Part shown: piece after piece, positions 4,373 through 30,666 of the stretch
Position numbering within the stretch: the first letter of the stretch is position 1
Layout of the letters: the number at the start of each line of letters is the position of its first letter
Source of the DNA: Escherichia phage T4
DNA length: 64,000 nucleotides
Reading direction: 5' to 3' (one strand)
Sequence record: OL964745.1
The notes under the pieces: generated by a model
The model's database searches: none
Told to the model about the DNA's origin: nothing
The model's input: only the letters and a program-made list of their open reading frames with translations
Made by a program: the position numbers and the translations under genes

Positions 4373-4655
4373 TCATATCCTCAATCTGCGATCTAGTAGT
4401 CTTCCAAAGAATACTGATGAGTTCATCGTTATATGGCTGTTTTAGAATATCCCGACTTTTCTTGATAGCATATTCGTATTGAGCAAAATTATTATTTTCA
4501 GCTGCGATCTGAGCGTGCTTATAAAGACGATTCAGTTCGCGTTTGTTTTTAGACAATAACTTATTTGCTTTTCTTTCTGCTTCAAGACGGTTCTTTTCTT
4601 CAATAGAAGAAATAAGCTTTTCCACTTCATCATTAATTTCGGGTTTATCAGTCAT
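4338..4655 (-). CDS. Hypothetical coiled-coil protein
   Basis: 105-aa ORF, charged heptad-like sequence. Confidence 0.4.
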   Translation of the reverse strand: MTDKPEINDEVEKLISSIEEKNRLEAERKANKLLSKNKRELNRLYKHAQIAAENNNFAQYEYAIKKSRDILKQPYNDELISILWKTTRSQIEDMIDAYTRKIQAS

Positions 4656-4656
4656 A

Positions 4657-4875
4657 TTATTTCTCTAATATAAAATAAAAATCATCATCTGTTAAATGAT
4701 ACCGATAGTTTAATTCTACACCATTAGATTTAAAAGCGGTATCATACGGATTTTCTGGATCAATATCAATGTCAAGAGCTAAAACTTCCCTGAGATACAT
4801 TTTAAGTAAATAGGGAATAGCTTCAACTTCAGGTATTTCTTCCAAGAATCCGGAGAGGTTAATCGTTAGCCTCAT
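4657..4875 (-). CDS. Hypothetical small protein
   Basis: ORF 4657-4902 trimmed to internal Met to limit overlap with gene 55. Confidence 0.3.
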
Positions 4876-5416
4876 ATAAAAAATCCAAACTAGGAGAATC
4901 ATCTACAACACTTTTCTTTTCAGCCCCCGGTGTTCTATAGGTTGATTCTTCGTAATGCGTCATTTTATCATAGATGTCTTGAATAAAAGTTTCATCTACT
5001 AACGCAACCATATCGTCGTCACGGCTGTCATAGACATTGTGAACGAAGTAACTATATTTCTTTGCAACTTCCTTACGTTCTTTTTTAATACGTTGGACGA
5101 ATGCATTAAAACAAGCTTGAGTTATATACGCATGTGGGTTTTTATATTTCGTTTCATCAAAATTGTGAAGCCCCTTAATAGAAGCTTCTATACCATCTGC
5201 AATCATTTCTTGTTTCCAAGACTGGGTGTATCCTGAAAAGTTGAAACGTTTAGATAAGCCTTCTGCAATAAGCATAATGGCTAATCCGATAGTATCATTC
5301 TGACGAACTACTTTATTTGGGTCTTTATTATTTGCTAATTCTGTTTTCCAATCAATAATAGCTTGTAAAAGCTCTTTATTGTTTACGTAATTATATTTAG
5401 GCTTAGTTTCTGACAT
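4859..5416 (-). CDS. 55: Late-transcription sigma factor gp55
   Basis: 185 aa from [23 protein letters not shown]..., matches T4 gp55 from memory. Confidence 0.9.
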
Positions 5417-8822: not shown

Positions 8823-9055
8823 CGTTTCACCTCGTATTCATATTTATACGAGGATAAACAGCTGCATGTCACCATGCAGTTCAGACTATATCTTCAACTC
8901 TTAGAGTTGTCTGCCGTTTCGGGTCGCTTGACCCTACTCCCTTACATTCATCAGGGATAGTCGTTGGGCATTTACAGCTACTGCTGATTTAGCAACGGAT
9001 TGTCTCAGTGAGAGTTTCCCGTTTTAGGCAGATTTTACATGAGCTTGACTTACGT
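8025..9055 (-). mobile_element. Group I intron (nrdD/sunY type) with homing-endonuclease ORF; 3' end and downstream exon not present
   Basis: Minus-strand core AAAATCTGCCTAAAACGGGAAACTCTCACTGAGACAATCCGTTGCTAAATCAGC (P3/P4-like) after the nrdD exon-1 reading frame ends. Confidence 0.65.
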
Positions 9056-9595
9056 TAACTCATAAGCTTGGAATGCATCGTATACGTCTTTTTCTGTTTT
9101 AGATTGAGCATAATTCAACGCATCAGCGATTTGCCATTTTTCTGCATCCTCAATATGTTTTGCATAGGTGCGTTTAACATAAGGAGAAAGTACTTTATCT
9201 ACATTCGCAAAAGTCGTTCCGCCGTATTGGTGAGAAGCAACTTGCGCAGTAATTTGTGCCATAATTGCAGTAGCAACTCCAATTGATTTAGGAGTTTCAA
9301 TCTGCGCATTACCAAGCTTAAATCCGTTTTCAAGCATTCCTTTTAAATATACTAAACAGCAATTAGTAAATGGAAGAGCAGGGGAATAATCAATATCATG
9401 CACGTGAATAATTCCGCTTTCATGCGCTTTCATAATAAAAGACGGGACCATATTTTTGGCAATGTGTTTAGACACAATACCAGCCATAAGGTCCCGTTGA
9501 GTTGGAAAAACACGAGAATCTTTATTAGCATTCTCGTTTAAAAGGTCTTTATTAGTTTTATGAATTAATCCTTCAATTTCTTTTTCAATTGTCAT
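9056..9595 (-). CDS. nrdD: Anaerobic ribonucleotide reductase NrdD, exon 1 (N-terminal ~180 codons)
   Basis: LLNENANKDS...PTQRDL...HVHDIDYSP...NCCLVYLKGM...AQITAQVASHQYGGTT aligns with the E. coli NrdD N-terminal region from memory. Confidence 0.75.
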
Positions 9596-28840: not shown

Positions 28841-28972
28841 GTTTTGTGAAAAAATTTTTAAAAAGTTTTAGGGAATTCTAGGGCGGAGAGGGGCAATTAA
28901 AAGATAGGATAATATATTATAAAGGGTATAAACTAAATGATGCCTAGAGAGGTCTGGAAAGGCTTAGATACC

Positions 28973-29000
28973 AAAAAGCCCCAACCTTTCGGTCGGGGCT
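28973..29000 (-). terminator. Rho-independent terminator after the stable-RNA region
   Basis: Minus strand GCCCCGACC-GAAA-GGUUGGGGC followed by UUUUU. Confidence 0.5.
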
Positions 29001-29002
29001 AA

Positions 29003-29314
29003 GCCTTGCGGCAACCTTGTCGGGGTTCCACCTGCCAAGGCAAGTGTTTGTACGAAACGCCGGGATTCGAACCCGGTTATTAAGTAGTTGACGCTACTCA
29101 ATATTTTTAAAAGGCCATATCTCAACCATATCCGAACGTTCCGTCAAAAACGCTACTCGGCTTACGGCAAAGATATTTCCTCGAATCGATAATTTGGTGC
29201 GCCGTTTCTGCTGTGATGTAAGAGGGCATCAATAAACGCAAAGATTATTAACGCAATTCCTTACTCAGGGAACATCAGTCCGACGACTTACCGGTAGCGA
29301 CCCGGTTTCTCATT
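29003..29314 (-). ncRNA. Untranslated stable-RNA region downstream of tRNA-Arg (T4 species 1/2 RNA-like)
   Basis: No ORF; tRNA-like T-arm CCGGGTTCGAATCCCGG; repeated GAGTAGCGT; ends at a terminator; boundaries approximate. Confidence 0.4.
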
Positions 29315-29389
29315 TGGTATCCCGCCCTGGGATCGAACCAGGACCGCAAACTTAGAAGGATCGTATGCTATCCATTACACCAGCGGGAC
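29315..29389 (-). tRNA. tRNA-Arg (anticodon TCT), CCA encoded
   Basis: Cloverleaf folded by hand: acceptor GTCCCGC, anticodon loop CTTCTAA, T-arm GGTTCGATCC, 3' ACCA. Confidence 0.8.
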
Positions 29390-29394
29390 GTAAT

Positions 29395-30054
29395 TTAAAA
29401 TTTCATTTTTCGACCTTTAAACCATCCTTCTGGAATTGGGTCAGTTTTCTTAATACGTTTAGAAACTTTTTCATCTAATGAATGAATCCACATCATACCG
29501 AATTGGGAATTCTTTTCACCTTTCTGGTGATTATTTTTGGCGTGAGATTCTTTCATTTTATTAATAGTTTCAGGAGTATGATGCTTATTTAGATCTGCTA
29601 TTATTTAAAAATTTTTCCCTGTATTCAGGAGTTGACCACAAACGTTTAAATACATTTGAACCAATTTTACGATATTTTTCTTGAAGTAAAATATCATTTT
29701 CAAAACGTGACTTAAACGATAGCTCCTTTTAAGCTAGCATCTTTCTTCTGGTTTAGCATTCCAGGAATATTTACATGATCCCATCCACCTTCACCGCCAA
29801 GTTTTAAATTATACACATCTGGTCTATTTAAAAACTCTTCTGTGACAATATTTTTCTCGGCTTCAAGCATAGATTCTTTATCGTCAAAATACTCTAATAT
29901 TTCTTTAGAAAAATTTTCTATACCATATTTATCTTGGGCTCTTTTTAATAATTTACCAGAACCCATATCCATCATCTAAATTTTCGGTAGAATGCACACC
30001 AATATAAATTTTATTATTAATTTTATTTGTTATTTTATAAGTGTAATAGAACAT
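29395..30054 (-). pseudogene. segB: GIY-YIG homing endonuclease (segB-like) split over four frames
   Basis: MFYYTYKITNKINNKIYIGVHSTENLDDGY-stop; MGSGKLLKRAQDKYGIENF (ORF 29712-29975); IGSNVFKRLWSTPEYREKF; NUMOD-like HTPETINKMKESHAK...PIPEGWFKGRKMKF; every junction a +1 shift. Confidence 0.55.
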
Positions 30055-30095: not shown

Positions 30096-30169
30096 TGACC
30101 CAGACCAGATTTGAACTGGTAACCTTTCCCTTATGAGGGGACTGCTGCTAACCATTGAGCTACAGGGCC
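30096..30169 (-). tRNA. tRNA-Ile (anticodon CAT), no encoded CCA, non-canonical D-arm
   Basis: Acceptor GGCCCTG, anticodon loop CTCATAA, T-arm CCAGTTCAAATCTGG; D region GCTCAATGGTTAGCAGCAG lacks a clean 4-bp stem. Confidence 0.65.
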
Positions 30170-30170
30170 T

Positions 30171-30246
30171 TGGTGCTGATTGACGGAATCGAACCGCCGA
30201 CATCCTCATTACAAGTGAGGTGCTCTACCTACTGAGCTAAATCAGC
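30171..30246 (-). tRNA. tRNA-Thr (anticodon TGT), CCA encoded
   Basis: Canonical cloverleaf GCTGATT / GCTC-GAGC / CCTCA-CTTGTAA-TGAGG / GGCGGTTCGATTCCGTC / ACCA; 1 nt from tRNA-Ile. Confidence 0.9.
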
Positions 30247-30253
30247 AAAATTA

Positions 30254-30340
30254 CGGAGGCGATAGGATTTGAACCTATGAGTCGCCGGAGCGACTGCCGG
30301 TTTTCAAGACCGGTGCATTAAACCACTCTGCCACGCCTCC
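30254..30340 (-). tRNA. tRNA-Ser (anticodon TGA), class II, no encoded CCA
   Basis: Acceptor GGAGGCG, anticodon arm CCGGT-CTTGAAA-ACCGG, long variable arm, T-arm GGTTCAAATCC. Confidence 0.85.
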
Positions 30341-30342
30341 AG

Positions 30343-30416
30343 TCTCCATACAAGGATTTGAACCTTGGACCTCCTGATCCCAAATCAGGCGCTCTACCAA
30401 ACTGAGCTACACGGAG
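30343..30416 (-). tRNA. tRNA-Pro (anticodon TGG), no encoded CCA
   Basis: Acceptor CTCCGTG, anticodon arm CCTGA-TTTGGGA-TCAGG, T-arm CAAGGTTCAAATCCTTG; 2 nt from tRNA-Ser. Confidence 0.85.
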
Positions 30417-30426
30417 TAAATTAAAT

Positions 30427-30500
<74 letters not shown>

Positions 30501-30505
30501 AAATT

Positions 30506-30592
30506 TGGTGCGAGAAGTGGGACTCGAACCCACAAGGAAATCATTCCGCAGCATTTTAAGTGCTGTGCCTTTACCAATTTGACCATTCTCGC
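30506..30592 (-). tRNA. tRNA-Leu (anticodon TAA), class II, CCA encoded
   Basis: Acceptor GCGAGAA, anticodon arm CAGCA-CTTAAAA-TGCTG, long variable arm, T-arm GTGGGTTCGAGTCCCAC, ACCA. Confidence 0.85.
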
Positions 30593-30593
30593 G

Positions 30594-30666
30594 CTGGGAA
30601 TAAAGGACTCGAACCTTTGCATCTAGCAGTCAAAGTGCTATGCCTTACCAACTTGGCTAATTCCCA
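30594..30666 (-). tRNA. tRNA-Gln (anticodon TTG), no encoded CCA
   Basis: Acceptor TGGGAAT, anticodon arm TAGCA-CTTTGAC-TGCTA, T-arm AAAGGTTCGAGTCCTTT; 1 nt from tRNA-Leu. Confidence 0.85.

What the first reader, a model, noticed from the sequence alone, without database searches (positions are those of the whole stretch)
29003..29314. About 310 nt non-coding stable-RNA region with a tRNA-like T-arm and an internal repeat
Seen: downstream of tRNA-Arg there is no ORF. The sequence has a tRNA-like T-arm (CCGGGTTCGAATCCCGG), the motif GAGTAGCGT twice about 90 nt apart, and ends in a strong terminator. Established: T4 encodes two small stable RNAs (species 1 and 2) of unknown function at this location. 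Inference: this is that pair, and their function is still open.
Basis: partly seen in the sequence, partly recalled or inferred. Interest (0 to 1): 0.45.

Follow-up and report, generated by a model that had tools for sequence, protein, structure and literature searches.

The report
T4 species 1 and 2 RNAs
This interval holds phage T4's two long-known small stable RNAs (rnaD and rnaC), cut out of the tRNA operon transcript; the object is ordinary textbook T4, but comparison with relatives shows both are conserved folded RNAs whose job is still unknown.

Summary
The window is phage T4, 100% identical to a T4 genome record. The interval lies on the minus strand, downstream of tRNA-Arg. It holds species 2 RNA (rnaD, 29313..29195) and then species 1 RNA (rnaC, 29188..29052), as annotated in X03016 and NC_000866. 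A 50-nt trailer and an intrinsic terminator (29000..28977) follow.

Two details are wrong. The GAGTAGCGT copies are 59 nt apart, not about 90, and both lie in species 1. The terminator lies just outside the stated interval.

Thirty distinct rnaC homologues from about nine groups of T4-like phages support a fold. The RNA's own 5' end closes a 7-bp acceptor stem next to the T arm. A long arm and a 10-bp arm carry complementary hexaloops (UUGACG/CGUCAA) that covary. The "94-nt tRNA" reading used by some annotators is not supported.

rnaD is a small hairpin plus a rod. Its base is nearly invariant and its tip is variable. Each RNA occurs without the other in some phages.

No Rfam family, host homologue or ORF was found. 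Function remains unknown. My best guess is a tRNA-shaped decoy or protein-binding RNA, at about 0.3. The object is already known.

The parts
29315..29389 (-). tRNA-Arg (UCU) with encoded CCA; the upstream neighbour in the same transcript.
   Evidence: ARAGORN; Rfam tRNA, 48.8 bits; X03016 annotation.
29195..29313 (-). Species 2 RNA (rnaD), 119 nt. It has a 5' hairpin (nt 8-24) and a long rod-like hairpin (nt 27-117).
   Evidence: Annotated in X03016 and NC_000866.4. The same fold comes out of separate MFE folds of 23 homologues. On A3, 93.3% of cells are paired, against 29-58% in the slid controls.
29290..29306 (-). rnaD 5' hairpin (A/G)CCGG-GUCGCUA-CCGG(U/C). The loop is invariant.
   Evidence: The basal pair covaries: A-U in 12, G-C in 6, G-U in 4 sequences.
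29217..29265 (-). Variable tip of the rnaD rod (about nt 49-97). It is replaced wholesale by other hairpins in some relatives. It is flanked by a nearly invariant 5' module (nt 4-48) and a 3' module (about 22 nt).
   Evidence: Alignment A3; pair counts; folds.
29189..29194 (-). The 6-nt spacer AAUUAU between rnaD and rnaC; the 5' leader that is removed from rnaC.
   Evidence: In relatives, rnaC starts 5-7 nt after the CCA of the preceding tRNA.
29052..29188 (-). Species 1 RNA (rnaC), 137 nt as annotated in X03016 (139 nt, 29189..29051, in RefSeq). It is a tRNA-shaped four-way junction.
   Evidence: MFE z-score -4.77. On A2, 54 pairs are 91.9% paired against 38-46% in the slid controls, and 28 pairs show compensatory changes. 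RNAalifold predicts the same architecture. Covariance model R1 scores 163 bits here, the only strong hit in the window.
29182..29188 (-). rnaC P1 (acceptor stem), 5' strand, nt 1-7 (CGAUUCG). It pairs with nt 130-136 (29059..29053), with a tandem U.U mismatch in T4.
   Evidence: The 3:134 pair covaries: A-U in 14, G-C in 16 sequences. Tegunavirus has all 7 pairs standard.
29112..29181 (-). rnaC arm I (nt 8-77): a 3-bp P2 plus a long interrupted hairpin that ends in the hexaloop UUGACG (nt 42-47, 29147..29142).
   Evidence: Fifteen of its 26 pairs show changes on both sides. Two sequence types of this arm keep the same pairing columns.
29078..29103 (-). rnaC arm II (nt 86-111): a 10-bp hairpin with the hexaloop CGUCAA (nt 96-101, 29093..29088), complementary to the arm I loop.
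   Evidence: Eight of 10 stem pairs are compensated. The loop-loop helix is 100% paired in 30 sequences, against 16-51% in the slid controls. It has two compensated positions.
29060..29076 (-). rnaC T arm: CCGGG-UUCGAAU-CCCGG.
   Evidence: The stem is 100% paired, with 2 compensated pairs. The loop is not canonical in Kanagawavirus (UGCAUGC) or Tegunavirus (C at position 54).
29048..29052 (-). Discriminator-position U followed by ACAA. The tail U-N-C-A is conserved: ACA in T4, UCA in Tegunavirus, and an encoded CCA in Marfa-type Klebsiella phages.
   Evidence: sequences retrieved by BLAST, not by a pattern that fixes the tail.
29001..29047 (-). Conserved 3' trailer between rnaC and the terminator.
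   Evidence: It is retained in JS98, where rnaC is precisely absent. It folds with z = -3.2 together with the terminator.
28977..29000 (-). Intrinsic terminator hairpin AGCCCCGACC-GAAA-GGUUGGGGCU followed by UUUUUGG; the end of the tRNA operon transcript.
   Evidence: annotated as a potential terminator in X03016.

Best explanation
**What it is (shown).** The interval is the 3' end of the T4 tRNA operon. It encodes the two classical small stable RNAs: species 2 (rnaD) and species 1 (rnaC).

**How they are made (inferred from anatomy; the enzymology rests on my memory of the 1970s-80s literature).** One long transcript runs through the tRNAs, rnaD and rnaC to the terminator at 29000..28977, and is cut into pieces. 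rnaC is released like a tRNA. Its annotated 5' end is the first base of a 7-bp acceptor stem stacked on a T arm, which is the geometry RNase P measures. Its annotated 3' end is the discriminator position. The AAUUAU leader looks like an RNase E site.

**What rnaC looks like (shown by covariation).**
- It is a four-way junction: an acceptor stem, a long arm I, a 10-bp arm II and a T arm.
- It has no D arm and no 7-nt anticodon loop, so it cannot decode.
- The hexaloops of arms I and II are complementary and covary, so they pair. This locks the body into a fixed shape, or joins molecules to one another.

**What rnaD looks like (shown).** It is a small hairpin plus a rod. The base of the rod is almost invariant in sequence, and the tip is free to vary as long as it pairs.

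**What they do (inference, about 0.3).** Both act in trans as folded RNAs that bind proteins. rnaC would act as a tRNA mimic that occupies or decoys a tRNA-recognising host or phage protein. Candidates are a processing enzyme or a tRNA-targeting defence nuclease. It would not act as a decoder or as a base-pairing regulator.
For: **Identity**
- 100% match to a T4 genome record; exact mapping onto the annotated species 1/2 and rnaC/rnaD features.
- The transcripts are reported by Northern blot assay (PMC9697503).

**rnaC fold**
- MFE z-score -4.77.
- Divergent homologues, folded one by one, mostly give the same cloverleaf-like shape.
- RNAalifold agrees.
- 54 pairs are 91.9% paired against 38-46% in the slid controls, and 28 pairs carry double changes against 5-11.
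- The loop-loop helix is 100% paired against 16-51% in the slid controls. It has two independent compensations: A-U to G-C in Marfa-type phages and C-G to U-A in Tegunavirus.

**tRNA-like release**
- The annotated ends coincide with P1 nt 1 and the discriminator position.
- rnaC sits inside tRNA arrays, between tRNA-Trp and tRNA-Gly or between tRNA-Met and tRNA-Gly. It starts 5-7 nt after a CCA and ends a few nt before the next tRNA.
- Four of the eight T4 tRNAs also lack an encoded CCA.

**Selection**
- rnaC is at least 95% identical in 683 of 750 phage records. rnaD reaches that level in only 165 of 734.
- rnaD nevertheless keeps 45 nt and 22 nt nearly invariant, and its tip stays paired.

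**Independence of the two RNAs**
- rnaD occurs without rnaC in JS98. rnaC occurs without rnaD in Karam-, Kanagawa-, Moon-, Gelderland-, Teguna- and Marfavirus.

**Context for a host-interaction role**
- The T6 tRNA cluster is an anti-defence locus (PMC13096335).
- A single SNP in rnaD, shared by three evolved lines, accompanied a large gain of virulence of a T4-like phage on E. coli ECOR34 (PMC12685909).
Against: - No experiment or computation here shows a partner or a phenotype. The functional part is a guess.
- From memory, T4 tRNA-region deletions grow normally on laboratory strains.
- The T loop is not canonical in Kanagawavirus or Tegunavirus. This argues against any role that needs a true tRNA elbow.
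- The sequence set is shallow: about 9 lineages, with an effective sequence number of 1.16 in the model.
- Many sequences were retrieved with patterns that fix some columns (CGAGGA, TAAC, GG/CC of the T stem, GCG, GTNCAA). The invariance of those columns is therefore partly by construction.
- The kissing loop rests on only two compensatory events.
- Covariation cannot tell intramolecular from intermolecular loop pairing.
- The RNase P, RNase E and CCA-addition steps were not tested here.
- The two database records disagree by 1-2 nt on the ends.
- The SNP shared by the three BW-1 lines could be standing variation in the ancestral stock.
Confidence: 0.8

Rival explanations
1. The 3' 94 nt of species 1 are a degenerate or unusual class II tRNA (called tRNA-Lys(UUU), tRNA-??? 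or tRNA-Sec-like). In this reading the acceptor stem is formed by the internal segment ACGGAACG (nt 45-52) and the 3' end, and the first 44 nt are a leader.
For: - Annotators of G2133 and G9062 called a 94-96-nt tRNA here.
- Rfam tRNA-Sec aligns over 29144..29052 at 17.5 bits.
- The 8-bp helix is perfect in T4 and can form in 88.8% of cells across the alignment.
- T4 has CUUUUAA, the tRNA-Lys anticodon-loop sequence.
Against: - The helix has no compensatory change and scores below every shuffle.
- Enforcing it costs 6-27 kcal/mol relative to the MFE fold in nine homologues.
- The annotated 5' end lies 44 nt upstream, at the start of the covarying P1.
- nt 3 covaries with nt 134. nt 48 does not.
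- CUUUUAA is not conserved: UUAUCUAA, UUUGAA and UUCUAA occur in relatives.
- ARAGORN and Rfam at gathering threshold call nothing here in T4.
Confidence: 0.03
2. The two RNAs are stable processing by-products. They would be structured spacers left over when the tRNAs are cut out, with no function of their own beyond punctuating and protecting the transcript (a cis role in processing or in 3'-end stability).
For: - They are co-transcribed with the tRNAs and lie at the operon's 3' end in T4.
- T4's CCA end on rnaD is not conserved in relatives.
- rnaC is missing from JS98 although its flanks are kept.
- No phenotype is known in laboratory hosts (from memory).
Against: - A spacer needs neither two covarying arms with matching hexaloops nor near-identity at 95% or more across hundreds of phages.
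- rnaD keeps 45 and 22 nearly invariant nucleotides, including unpaired ones.
- Both are kept independently in different gene contexts: inside tRNA arrays, after ORFs, and without tRNA neighbours in Tegunavirus.
Confidence: 0.17
3. They are base-pairing regulatory small RNAs. Their conserved single-stranded stretches would pair with host or phage mRNAs.
For: - The literature loosely calls them regulatory (PMC9697503, PMC12685909).
- There are conserved unpaired segments: the rnaC linker ..AAAAU, and the rnaD loop GUCGCUA and internal loops.
Against: - The mature RNAs end upstream of the terminator, so they lack the terminator hairpin plus U tail typical of Hfq-dependent sRNAs.
- The middle of the rnaC linker is variable.
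- The best complementary partner of the arm I loop is inside the same RNA, and the two covary.
- No similarity to E. coli genomes was found. That search detects homology, not antisense targets.
Confidence: 0.15
4. Species 1 forms multimers. The two complementary hexaloops would pair between molecules, hand in hand as in phi29 packaging RNA, to build a dimer or ring that acts as a scaffold.
For: Loop-loop covariation is equally compatible with pairing in trans. The two loops are not self-complementary, so they would allow head-to-tail chains.
Against: - There is no evidence of multimers.
- By rough helix-length arithmetic (inference), arm I has internal loops and a 3-nt bulge that could let it fold back onto arm II.
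- T4 packaging is known not to need an RNA (established knowledge).
Confidence: 0.08

Closest known systems
T4 rnaC (species 1 RNA) and rnaD (species 2 RNA), as annotated in X03016 and NC_000866.4
   Same: Identical sequence, position, strand and order. This is that locus.
   Different: Nothing in the sequence differs. The comparative fold, the loop-loop pairing, the phyletic pattern and the rejection of the 94-nt tRNA call are additions. I could not find them in the searchable literature.
Canonical tRNA (Rfam RF00005)
   Same: A 7-bp acceptor stem stacked directly on a 5-bp T stem with a UUCGAAU loop; a single discriminator base; placement in tRNA arrays; ends where tRNA processing would put them.
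   Different: No D arm. No anticodon arm with a 7-nt loop. Linkers of 0, 8, 1 and 0 nt around the junction instead of 2, 1, 4-5 and 0. Length 137 nt. Tandem U.U in the acceptor stem. No encoded CCA in T4. Not detected by Rfam or ARAGORN.
tRNA-like domain of tmRNA
   Same: An acceptor stem plus T arm closed by the RNA's two ends, with a large insertion where the anticodon arm would be.
   Different: No G3.U70 pair, no tag reading frame and no pseudoknot series. It is about half the size. ARAGORN finds no tmRNA.
Non-decoding viral or cellular tRNA mimics released by tRNA processing enzymes (murine gammaherpesvirus 68 vtRNAs, mascRNA from MALAT1); from memory
   Same: They are cut out by tRNA-processing enzymes, are not used in decoding, and are stable small RNAs of unclear or accessory function.
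   Different: Those are roughly tRNA-sized cloverleaves. rnaC has a 70-nt arm and a loop-loop tertiary contact. There is no sequence relationship.
   Same: Two hairpin loops with full Watson-Crick complementarity. Both are 6-nt loops here, as in TAR/TAR*.
   Different: Here both loops are in one 137-nt tRNA-shaped RNA. Whether they pair in cis or in trans is not known.

Membership tests
T4 species 1 RNA (rnaC) | Sequence and position of the annotated gene: downstream of tRNA-Arg and species 2, upstream of the operon terminator. | tested here: met
   100% identity to NC_000866.4 and OZ209023.1. X03016 feature 4741-4877 maps to window 29188..29052.
T4 species 1 RNA (rnaC) | A discrete stable transcript of about 140 nt in infected cells. 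| not testable with these tools
   Reported by Northern blot assay using an RNAC riboprobe in PMC9697503. Not testable from sequence.
T4 species 2 RNA (rnaD) | Sequence and position of the annotated gene, directly 3' of tRNA-Arg. | tested here: met
   X03016 feature 4615-4734 maps to 29313..29195. The old record has one extra G. RefSeq rnaD maps to 29314..29196.
tRNA (RF00005) | Acceptor stem stacked on a T arm, with processing-compatible ends. | tested here: met
   P1 and the T stem are supported by covariation. The annotated ends equal P1 nt 1 and the discriminator position.
tRNA (RF00005) | A D arm and an anticodon arm with a 7-nt loop; detection by tRNA models. | tested here: not met
   No hit at gathering threshold, and none from ARAGORN. 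Arm II has a 6-nt loop that pairs with arm I.
tRNA-Sec (RF01852) | A score at or above the gathering threshold, with an 8-bp acceptor stem. | tested here: not met
   17.5 bits against 47. The 8-bp helix it uses has no covariation and costs 6-27 kcal/mol.
tmRNA | A tRNA-like domain with G3.U70, plus a tag-peptide reading frame. | tested here: not met
   ARAGORN reports no tmRNA. Pair 3:70 is A-U or G-C. No suitable ORF.
Hfq-type base-pairing sRNA | A mature 3' end formed by an intrinsic terminator hairpin plus a U tail. | tested here: not met
   The annotated 3' ends (29195 and 29052) lie 195 and 52 nt upstream of the only terminator.
Any curated Rfam family (release 15) | A match at the gathering score within 29003-29314. 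| tested here: not met
   None at gathering threshold. Only chance-level matches at E up to 10.
Protein-coding gene | An ORF with a plausible start on either strand. | tested here: not met
   Only TTG-started frames of 24-53 aa. The 'hypothetical proteins' annotated over the homologous region in other phage records overlap the conserved RNA folds.

The most novel reading that the evidence does not exclude
rnaC is a tRNA-shaped decoy that a T4-like phage produces from its tRNA operon to occupy or inhibit a host tRNA-recognising factor, such as a tRNA-cleaving defence nuclease. rnaD is a second, independent host-interaction RNA, and its fast-evolving tip tunes specificity to particular hosts. 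This would fit the single rnaD SNP that accompanied adaptation of phage BW-1 to E. coli ECOR34. If true, it would give a function to RNAs left unexplained since the 1970s, and it would be an RNA-based counter-defence carried in phage tRNA clusters.
Probability: 0.2. Interest if true: 0.75.

Novelty: already known. Interest (0 to 1): 0.4.

Why it matters
The object is textbook T4, so finding it is not news. What remains open is a 50-year-old question: what these two abundant phage RNAs do.

This analysis gives concrete handles on that question:
- a covariation-backed fold for species 1, with a testable loop-loop contact;
- exact ends that fit tRNA-type processing;
- evidence that species 2 is also under selection, with an invariant base and a variable paired tip;
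- a presence/absence pattern showing that the two RNAs are separate accessory modules of phage tRNA clusters, which recent work treats as counter-defence loci.

It also flags recurring annotation errors: spurious "hypothetical proteins" and a spurious 94-nt "tRNA-Lys" laid over these RNAs in many phage genomes. Finally, no Rfam family exists for either RNA.

Tried and rejected
- **Rfam.** The gathering search of the whole window and the E-value search of 28900-29400 gave no family, only chance-level hits (tRNA-Sec, isrK, anti-hemB).
- **A small hairpin after the acceptor stem.** My first by-eye idea, AGGA-N4-UCUU, was dropped. The "loop" positions covary with a distant 3' partner, which supports the long arm I instead.
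- **Internal acceptor helix, or 94-nt tRNA.** Rejected.
- **Species 2 as a CCA-ended tRNA-like RNA.** Rejected. The CCA is specific to T4, and relatives have CCG, CAG or CCU. Its z-score is only -1.5.
- **Hammerhead-like CUGAUG...GAAAC in rnaD.** Considered by eye and dropped, because the core A9 and the helix topology do not fit.
- **tRNA-Lys or PrrC decoy via CUUUUAA.** Dropped because the motif is not conserved.
- **Host homologue.** None in 5,426 E. coli genomes. A pattern scan of 185,579 species genomes gave only 5 false positives.
- **A wasted scan.** One viral-contig scan used a pattern in the wrong register.
- **Literature.** Older primary papers (PNAS 1981, MMBR 2003) are not held. 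Searches for "species 1 RNA" and "p2Sp1" found nothing useful. The accession of phage BW-1 is not given in the paper, so I could not map its SNP on my alignment.
- **Weak hits of the covariance model.** They are ordinary tRNAs.
Full report
**1. What is in the window**

A 501-nt query around the finding is 100% identical to a T4 genome record (OZ209023.1). It is 99% identical to the 1985 T4 tRNA-region record X03016. All features lie on the minus strand.

ARAGORN and Rfam find the eight T4 tRNAs. tRNA-Arg is at 29389..29315.

X03016 annotates 'species 2 RNA' and 'species 1 RNA' directly downstream of tRNA-Arg, followed by a potential terminator. Aligning those features to the window gives:
- species 2 at 29313..29195 (119 nt; the old record has one extra G);
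- a 6-nt spacer, AAUUAU;
- species 1 at 29188..29052 (137 nt);
- the terminator hairpin at 29000..28977.

RefSeq NC_000866.4 annotates the same two as rnaD and rnaC, 'small, stable RNA'. Its ends are shifted by 1-2 nt, and rnaC is 139 nt there.

**2. Check of the observation**

- The T-arm string is at 29076..29060.
- GAGTAGCGT occurs twice in the whole 64-kb window, at 29158..29150 and 29099..29091.
- The spacing is 59 nt, not about 90. Both copies are in species 1.
- There is no ATG- or GTG-started ORF of 20 aa or more on the transcribed strand.
- The terminator is real: a 10-bp stem with 7 G-C pairs, a GAAA loop and a U tract. It begins 3 nt outside the interval given, and a 50-nt trailer separates it from species 1.

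**3. Literature**

- A 2010 review says the biological roles of RNAC and RNAD are unknown (PMC3014915).
- A 2022 transcriptome and proteome study classifies them as late-accumulating RNAs of unknown function. It reports validating this by Northern blot assay with an RNAC riboprobe (PMC9697503).
- A 2008 paper describes a primary transcript of about 1.75 kb. It runs from the middle promoter through the tRNAs and segB, and ends after species I (PMC2330249).
- A 2025 evolution study reports a single SNP shared by three lines of the T4-like phage BW-1 evolved on E. coli ECOR34. Virulence rose from 0.17 to 0.98 on their scale, and the authors place the SNP in the rnaD homologue (PMC12685909).
- A 2026 paper shows that the T6 tRNA cluster acts as an anti-defence locus: tRNA-Tyr counters Septu, and SegB amplifies the segment. 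It does not mention these RNAs (PMC13096335).

I found nothing that assigns a function to either RNA.

**4. Distribution**

*rnaC*
- It matches 750 phage records and is very conserved: at least 95% identical in 683 of them.
- More distant copies are in Kanagawavirus, Karamvirus, Tegunavirus and Gelderlandvirus.
- A second search, using a divergent copy, adds Marfavirus-type Klebsiella phages, Moonvirus, Edwardsiella and Kosakonia phages, and Citrobacter phage Ursula.
- In several of these, rnaC sits inside a tRNA array: tRNA-Trp, rnaC, tRNA-Gly in Pet-CM3-4 and Melville; tRNA-Trp, rnaC, an inserted ORF, then tRNA-Gly in Ursula; tRNA-Met, rnaC, tRNA-Gly in Moon.
- It starts 5-7 nt after the CCA of the preceding tRNA.

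*rnaD*
- It matches 734 records but diverges much faster: at least 95% identical in only 165, and 80-90% in 402.
- JS98 (Dhakavirus) has rnaD followed directly by the trailer and terminator, with rnaC precisely missing. The covariance model confirms there is no rnaC in that locus.
- The genera listed above with rnaC inside tRNA arrays have no rnaD.
- In Mosigvirus, an ORF separates tRNA-Arg from rnaD.

The two RNAs are therefore separate modules. No similar sequence was found in E. coli genomes. A pattern scan of one genome per bacterial or archaeal species gave only false positives.

**5. Structure of species 1**

The T4 sequence folds far better than shuffles do (-50.1 kcal/mol, z = -4.77, 0 of 200 shuffles). 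The fold is a four-way junction:
- P1 pairs nt 1-7 with nt 130-136, immediately 3' of the T stem;
- a 3-bp P2 leads into a long interrupted hairpin (arm I, nt 8-77);
- an 8-nt A-rich linker follows;
- then a 10-bp hairpin (arm II, nt 86-111);
- one nucleotide;
- then the T arm.

Most divergent homologues, folded individually, give the same architecture. This includes a second sequence type of arm I found in Gelderland-, Marfa- and PEi20-like phages. For three of them (L023, L038, L053) the minimum-energy fold differs; in L038 and L053 it pairs the two loops with each other.

I collected 30 distinct sequences by BLAST and by pattern scans of viral and metagenome contigs and aligned them as A2. 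On A2:
- 54 pairs are 91.9% paired, against 38-46% when partners are slid by 1-3 columns;
- 28 pairs carry changes on both sides, against 5-11 in the slid controls;
- no shuffle reaches the observed covariation score.

RNAalifold independently predicts the same helices. A covariance model built on A2 finds one strong hit per phage. It scores three sequences that were not in the training set above 100 bits.

The annotated 5' end (C at 29188) is the first base of P1. The annotated 3' end in X03016 (U at 29052) is the discriminator position. That is what tRNA-type processing would produce.

**6. The loop-loop contact and the 'repeat'**

Arm I ends in a hexaloop, UUGACG. Its closing pairs 40:49 and 41:48 covary. 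Arm II ends in a hexaloop, CGUCAA. The two loops are perfectly complementary.

In Tegunavirus the loops are UUGAUG and CAUCAA. In Marfa-type phages they are UUGGCG and CGCCAA. Across 30 sequences the six loop-loop pairs are 100% standard pairs, against 16-51% in the slid controls. Two positions are compensated in two separate lineages.

It sits in a different structural context in the two arms.

There are three caveats. There are only two compensatory events. The first retrieval pattern fixed CRUCAA, although the later ones did not. And covariation cannot say whether the loops pair within one molecule or between molecules.

**7. The rival '94-nt tRNA' reading**

Some genome annotators called a 94-96-nt tRNA-Lys(UUU) or tRNA-??? 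on the 3' part of rnaC. Rfam's tRNA-Sec model aligns weakly there (17.5 bits against a gathering score of 47). Both readings use an 8-bp helix between nt 45-52 and the 3' end.

That helix can form in 88.8% of cells. However, it has no compensatory change and scores below all shuffles. Forcing it costs 6-27 kcal/mol in nine homologues. nt 134 covaries with nt 3, not with nt 48. The CUUUUAA 'anticodon loop' is not conserved. I reject this reading.

**8. How tRNA-like is species 1**

*Shared with tRNA*
- A 7+5-bp acceptor/T stack.
- A mostly canonical T loop.
- A single discriminator base (U).
- Location in tRNA arrays.

*Not shared with tRNA*
- No D arm and no 7-nt anticodon loop.
- A different distribution of linkers around the junction.
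- A conserved tandem U.U mismatch in the acceptor stem. It is present in 28 of 30 sequences and replaced by standard pairs in Tegunavirus.
- A T loop that is altered in Kanagawavirus (UGCAUGC) and Tegunavirus (C at position 54).

The tail after the discriminator is U-N-C-A in all 11 homologues retrieved by BLAST. It is ACA in most, UCA in Tegunavirus, and an encoded CCA in Marfa-type phages.

Four of the eight T4 tRNAs (Gln, Pro, Ser, Ile) also lack an encoded CCA. Addition of CCA by the host is therefore a precedent in this operon. I could not establish whether species 1 receives CCA.

**9. Structure of species 2**

The single T4 sequence is not significantly more stable than shuffles (z = -1.5). 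However, 23 homologues give the same fold: a 5-bp hairpin with an invariant GUCGCUA loop, then a long rod.

In alignment A3 (22 sequences), nt 4-48 and the last 22 nt or so are nearly invariant. The central 50 nt or so vary, and in two lineages they are replaced by unrelated hairpins. Pairing is kept throughout: 93.3% paired against 29-58% in the slid controls, with 9 pairs changed on both sides.

The basal helices never vary, so covariation says nothing about them. T4's CCA at the 3' end is CCG, CAG or CCU in relatives, so species 2 is not a CCA-ended tRNA mimic.

An invariant base with a free but paired tip suggests a sequence-specific partner at the base, and either tolerance or diversifying pressure at the tip. 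By the authors' own numbering (about 41 nt from the 3' end), the BW-1 SNP would fall in the 3' strand of the tip. I could not verify this, because no accession is given.

**10. Mechanism**

*Shown*
- The identity of the two RNAs.
- The folds.
- The independence of the two modules.
- The absence of coding potential.
- The absence of any known RNA family or host homologue.

*Inferred*
- The biogenesis: RNase P-type cleavage at C1, an RNase E-type cut in the AAUUAU leader, and 3' trimming. The enzymology is from my memory of the Abelson, McClain and Apirion work and was not tested here.

*Guess (about 0.3)*
- Both RNAs work in trans as protein-binding RNAs.
- rnaC acts as a non-decoding tRNA mimic that occupies a tRNA-recognising factor.

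The guess rests on the tRNA-shaped end combined with a rigid non-tRNA body. It also rests on very strong sequence conservation, on the accessory presence/absence pattern, on residence in tRNA clusters now known to serve counter-defence, and on the one reported host-specific adaptive SNP.

**11. Verdict**

The finding is correct and the object is already known. Interest is moderate. It comes only from the open functional question and from the new comparative handles on it.

Noticed in passing
window 8862-9093 (-): A group I intron: Rfam RF00028, 105 bits, full-length model match. It is one of the T4 introns. I did not work out which gene carries it.
   Followed up: no
window 30096-30169 (-): ARAGORN calls this tRNA-Met(CAU). 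The T4 record X03016 annotates the same gene as tRNA-Ile. The CAU anticodon would need modification to read Ile. Many T4-like genome records carry the 'tRNA-Met' label.
   Followed up: partly
window 30096-30666 (-): Four of the eight T4 tRNA genes (Gln, Pro, Ser, Ile) have no encoded CCA. Leu, Gly, Thr and Arg do.
   Followed up: partly
window 29001-29047 (-); L030 (JS98): The 50-nt trailer between species 1 and the terminator is conserved, and it is kept in JS98, where rnaC is precisely missing. It contains CCCCGAC...AAGGUUG, which recurs in the terminator. Together with the terminator it folds with z = -3.2.
   Followed up: partly
L005 (G9062) 1165-2427: Three terminator copies (two annotated with the same energy, -17.10, and a weaker third, -10.40) flank ORFs inserted downstream of rnaC. 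This suggests the terminator and trailer are a recurrent insertion or recombination point.
   Followed up: no
window 29290-29306 (+): Read on the opposite strand, the rnaD 5' hairpin scores as a terminator-like site (5-bp stem plus a T-rich tail).
   Followed up: no
window 29261-29275 (-), rnaD nt 39-53: AUG UUC CCU GAG UAA is a 4-codon mini-frame. In relatives the fourth codon varies (GUU, GGG, GCG) while an in-frame stop is kept. In JS98-type sequences the AUG is AAG. This is probably a side effect of the UAAG/CUUA pairing.
   Followed up: partly
window 29060-29076 (-): The rnaC T arm contains GGTTCGAATCC. This fits the core GGTTCRANTCC reported as the recognition motif of the neighbouring homing endonuclease SegB (PMC2330249). 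The rnaC gene may therefore be a SegB cleavage site at the DNA level.
   Followed up: no
L055 (Marfa) 1216-1353; L056 542-715; many records: Genome annotations of many T4-like phages place 'hypothetical protein' CDSs, sometimes with ribosome-binding sites, or a 94-nt 'tRNA-Lys', over the rnaC and rnaD homologues. These are very likely annotation artefacts.
   Followed up: partly
L039 4259-4333 (-), L042 2073-2147 (+): Two viral contigs matched the rnaC 3' pattern. They carry what looks like an ordinary tRNA with a GCA anticodon loop (Cys-like), a U discriminator and an encoded CCA, preceded by a G+C-rich repeated segment (CCGGATCGGATTGGCCGACCGG). They are not rnaC.
   Followed up: no
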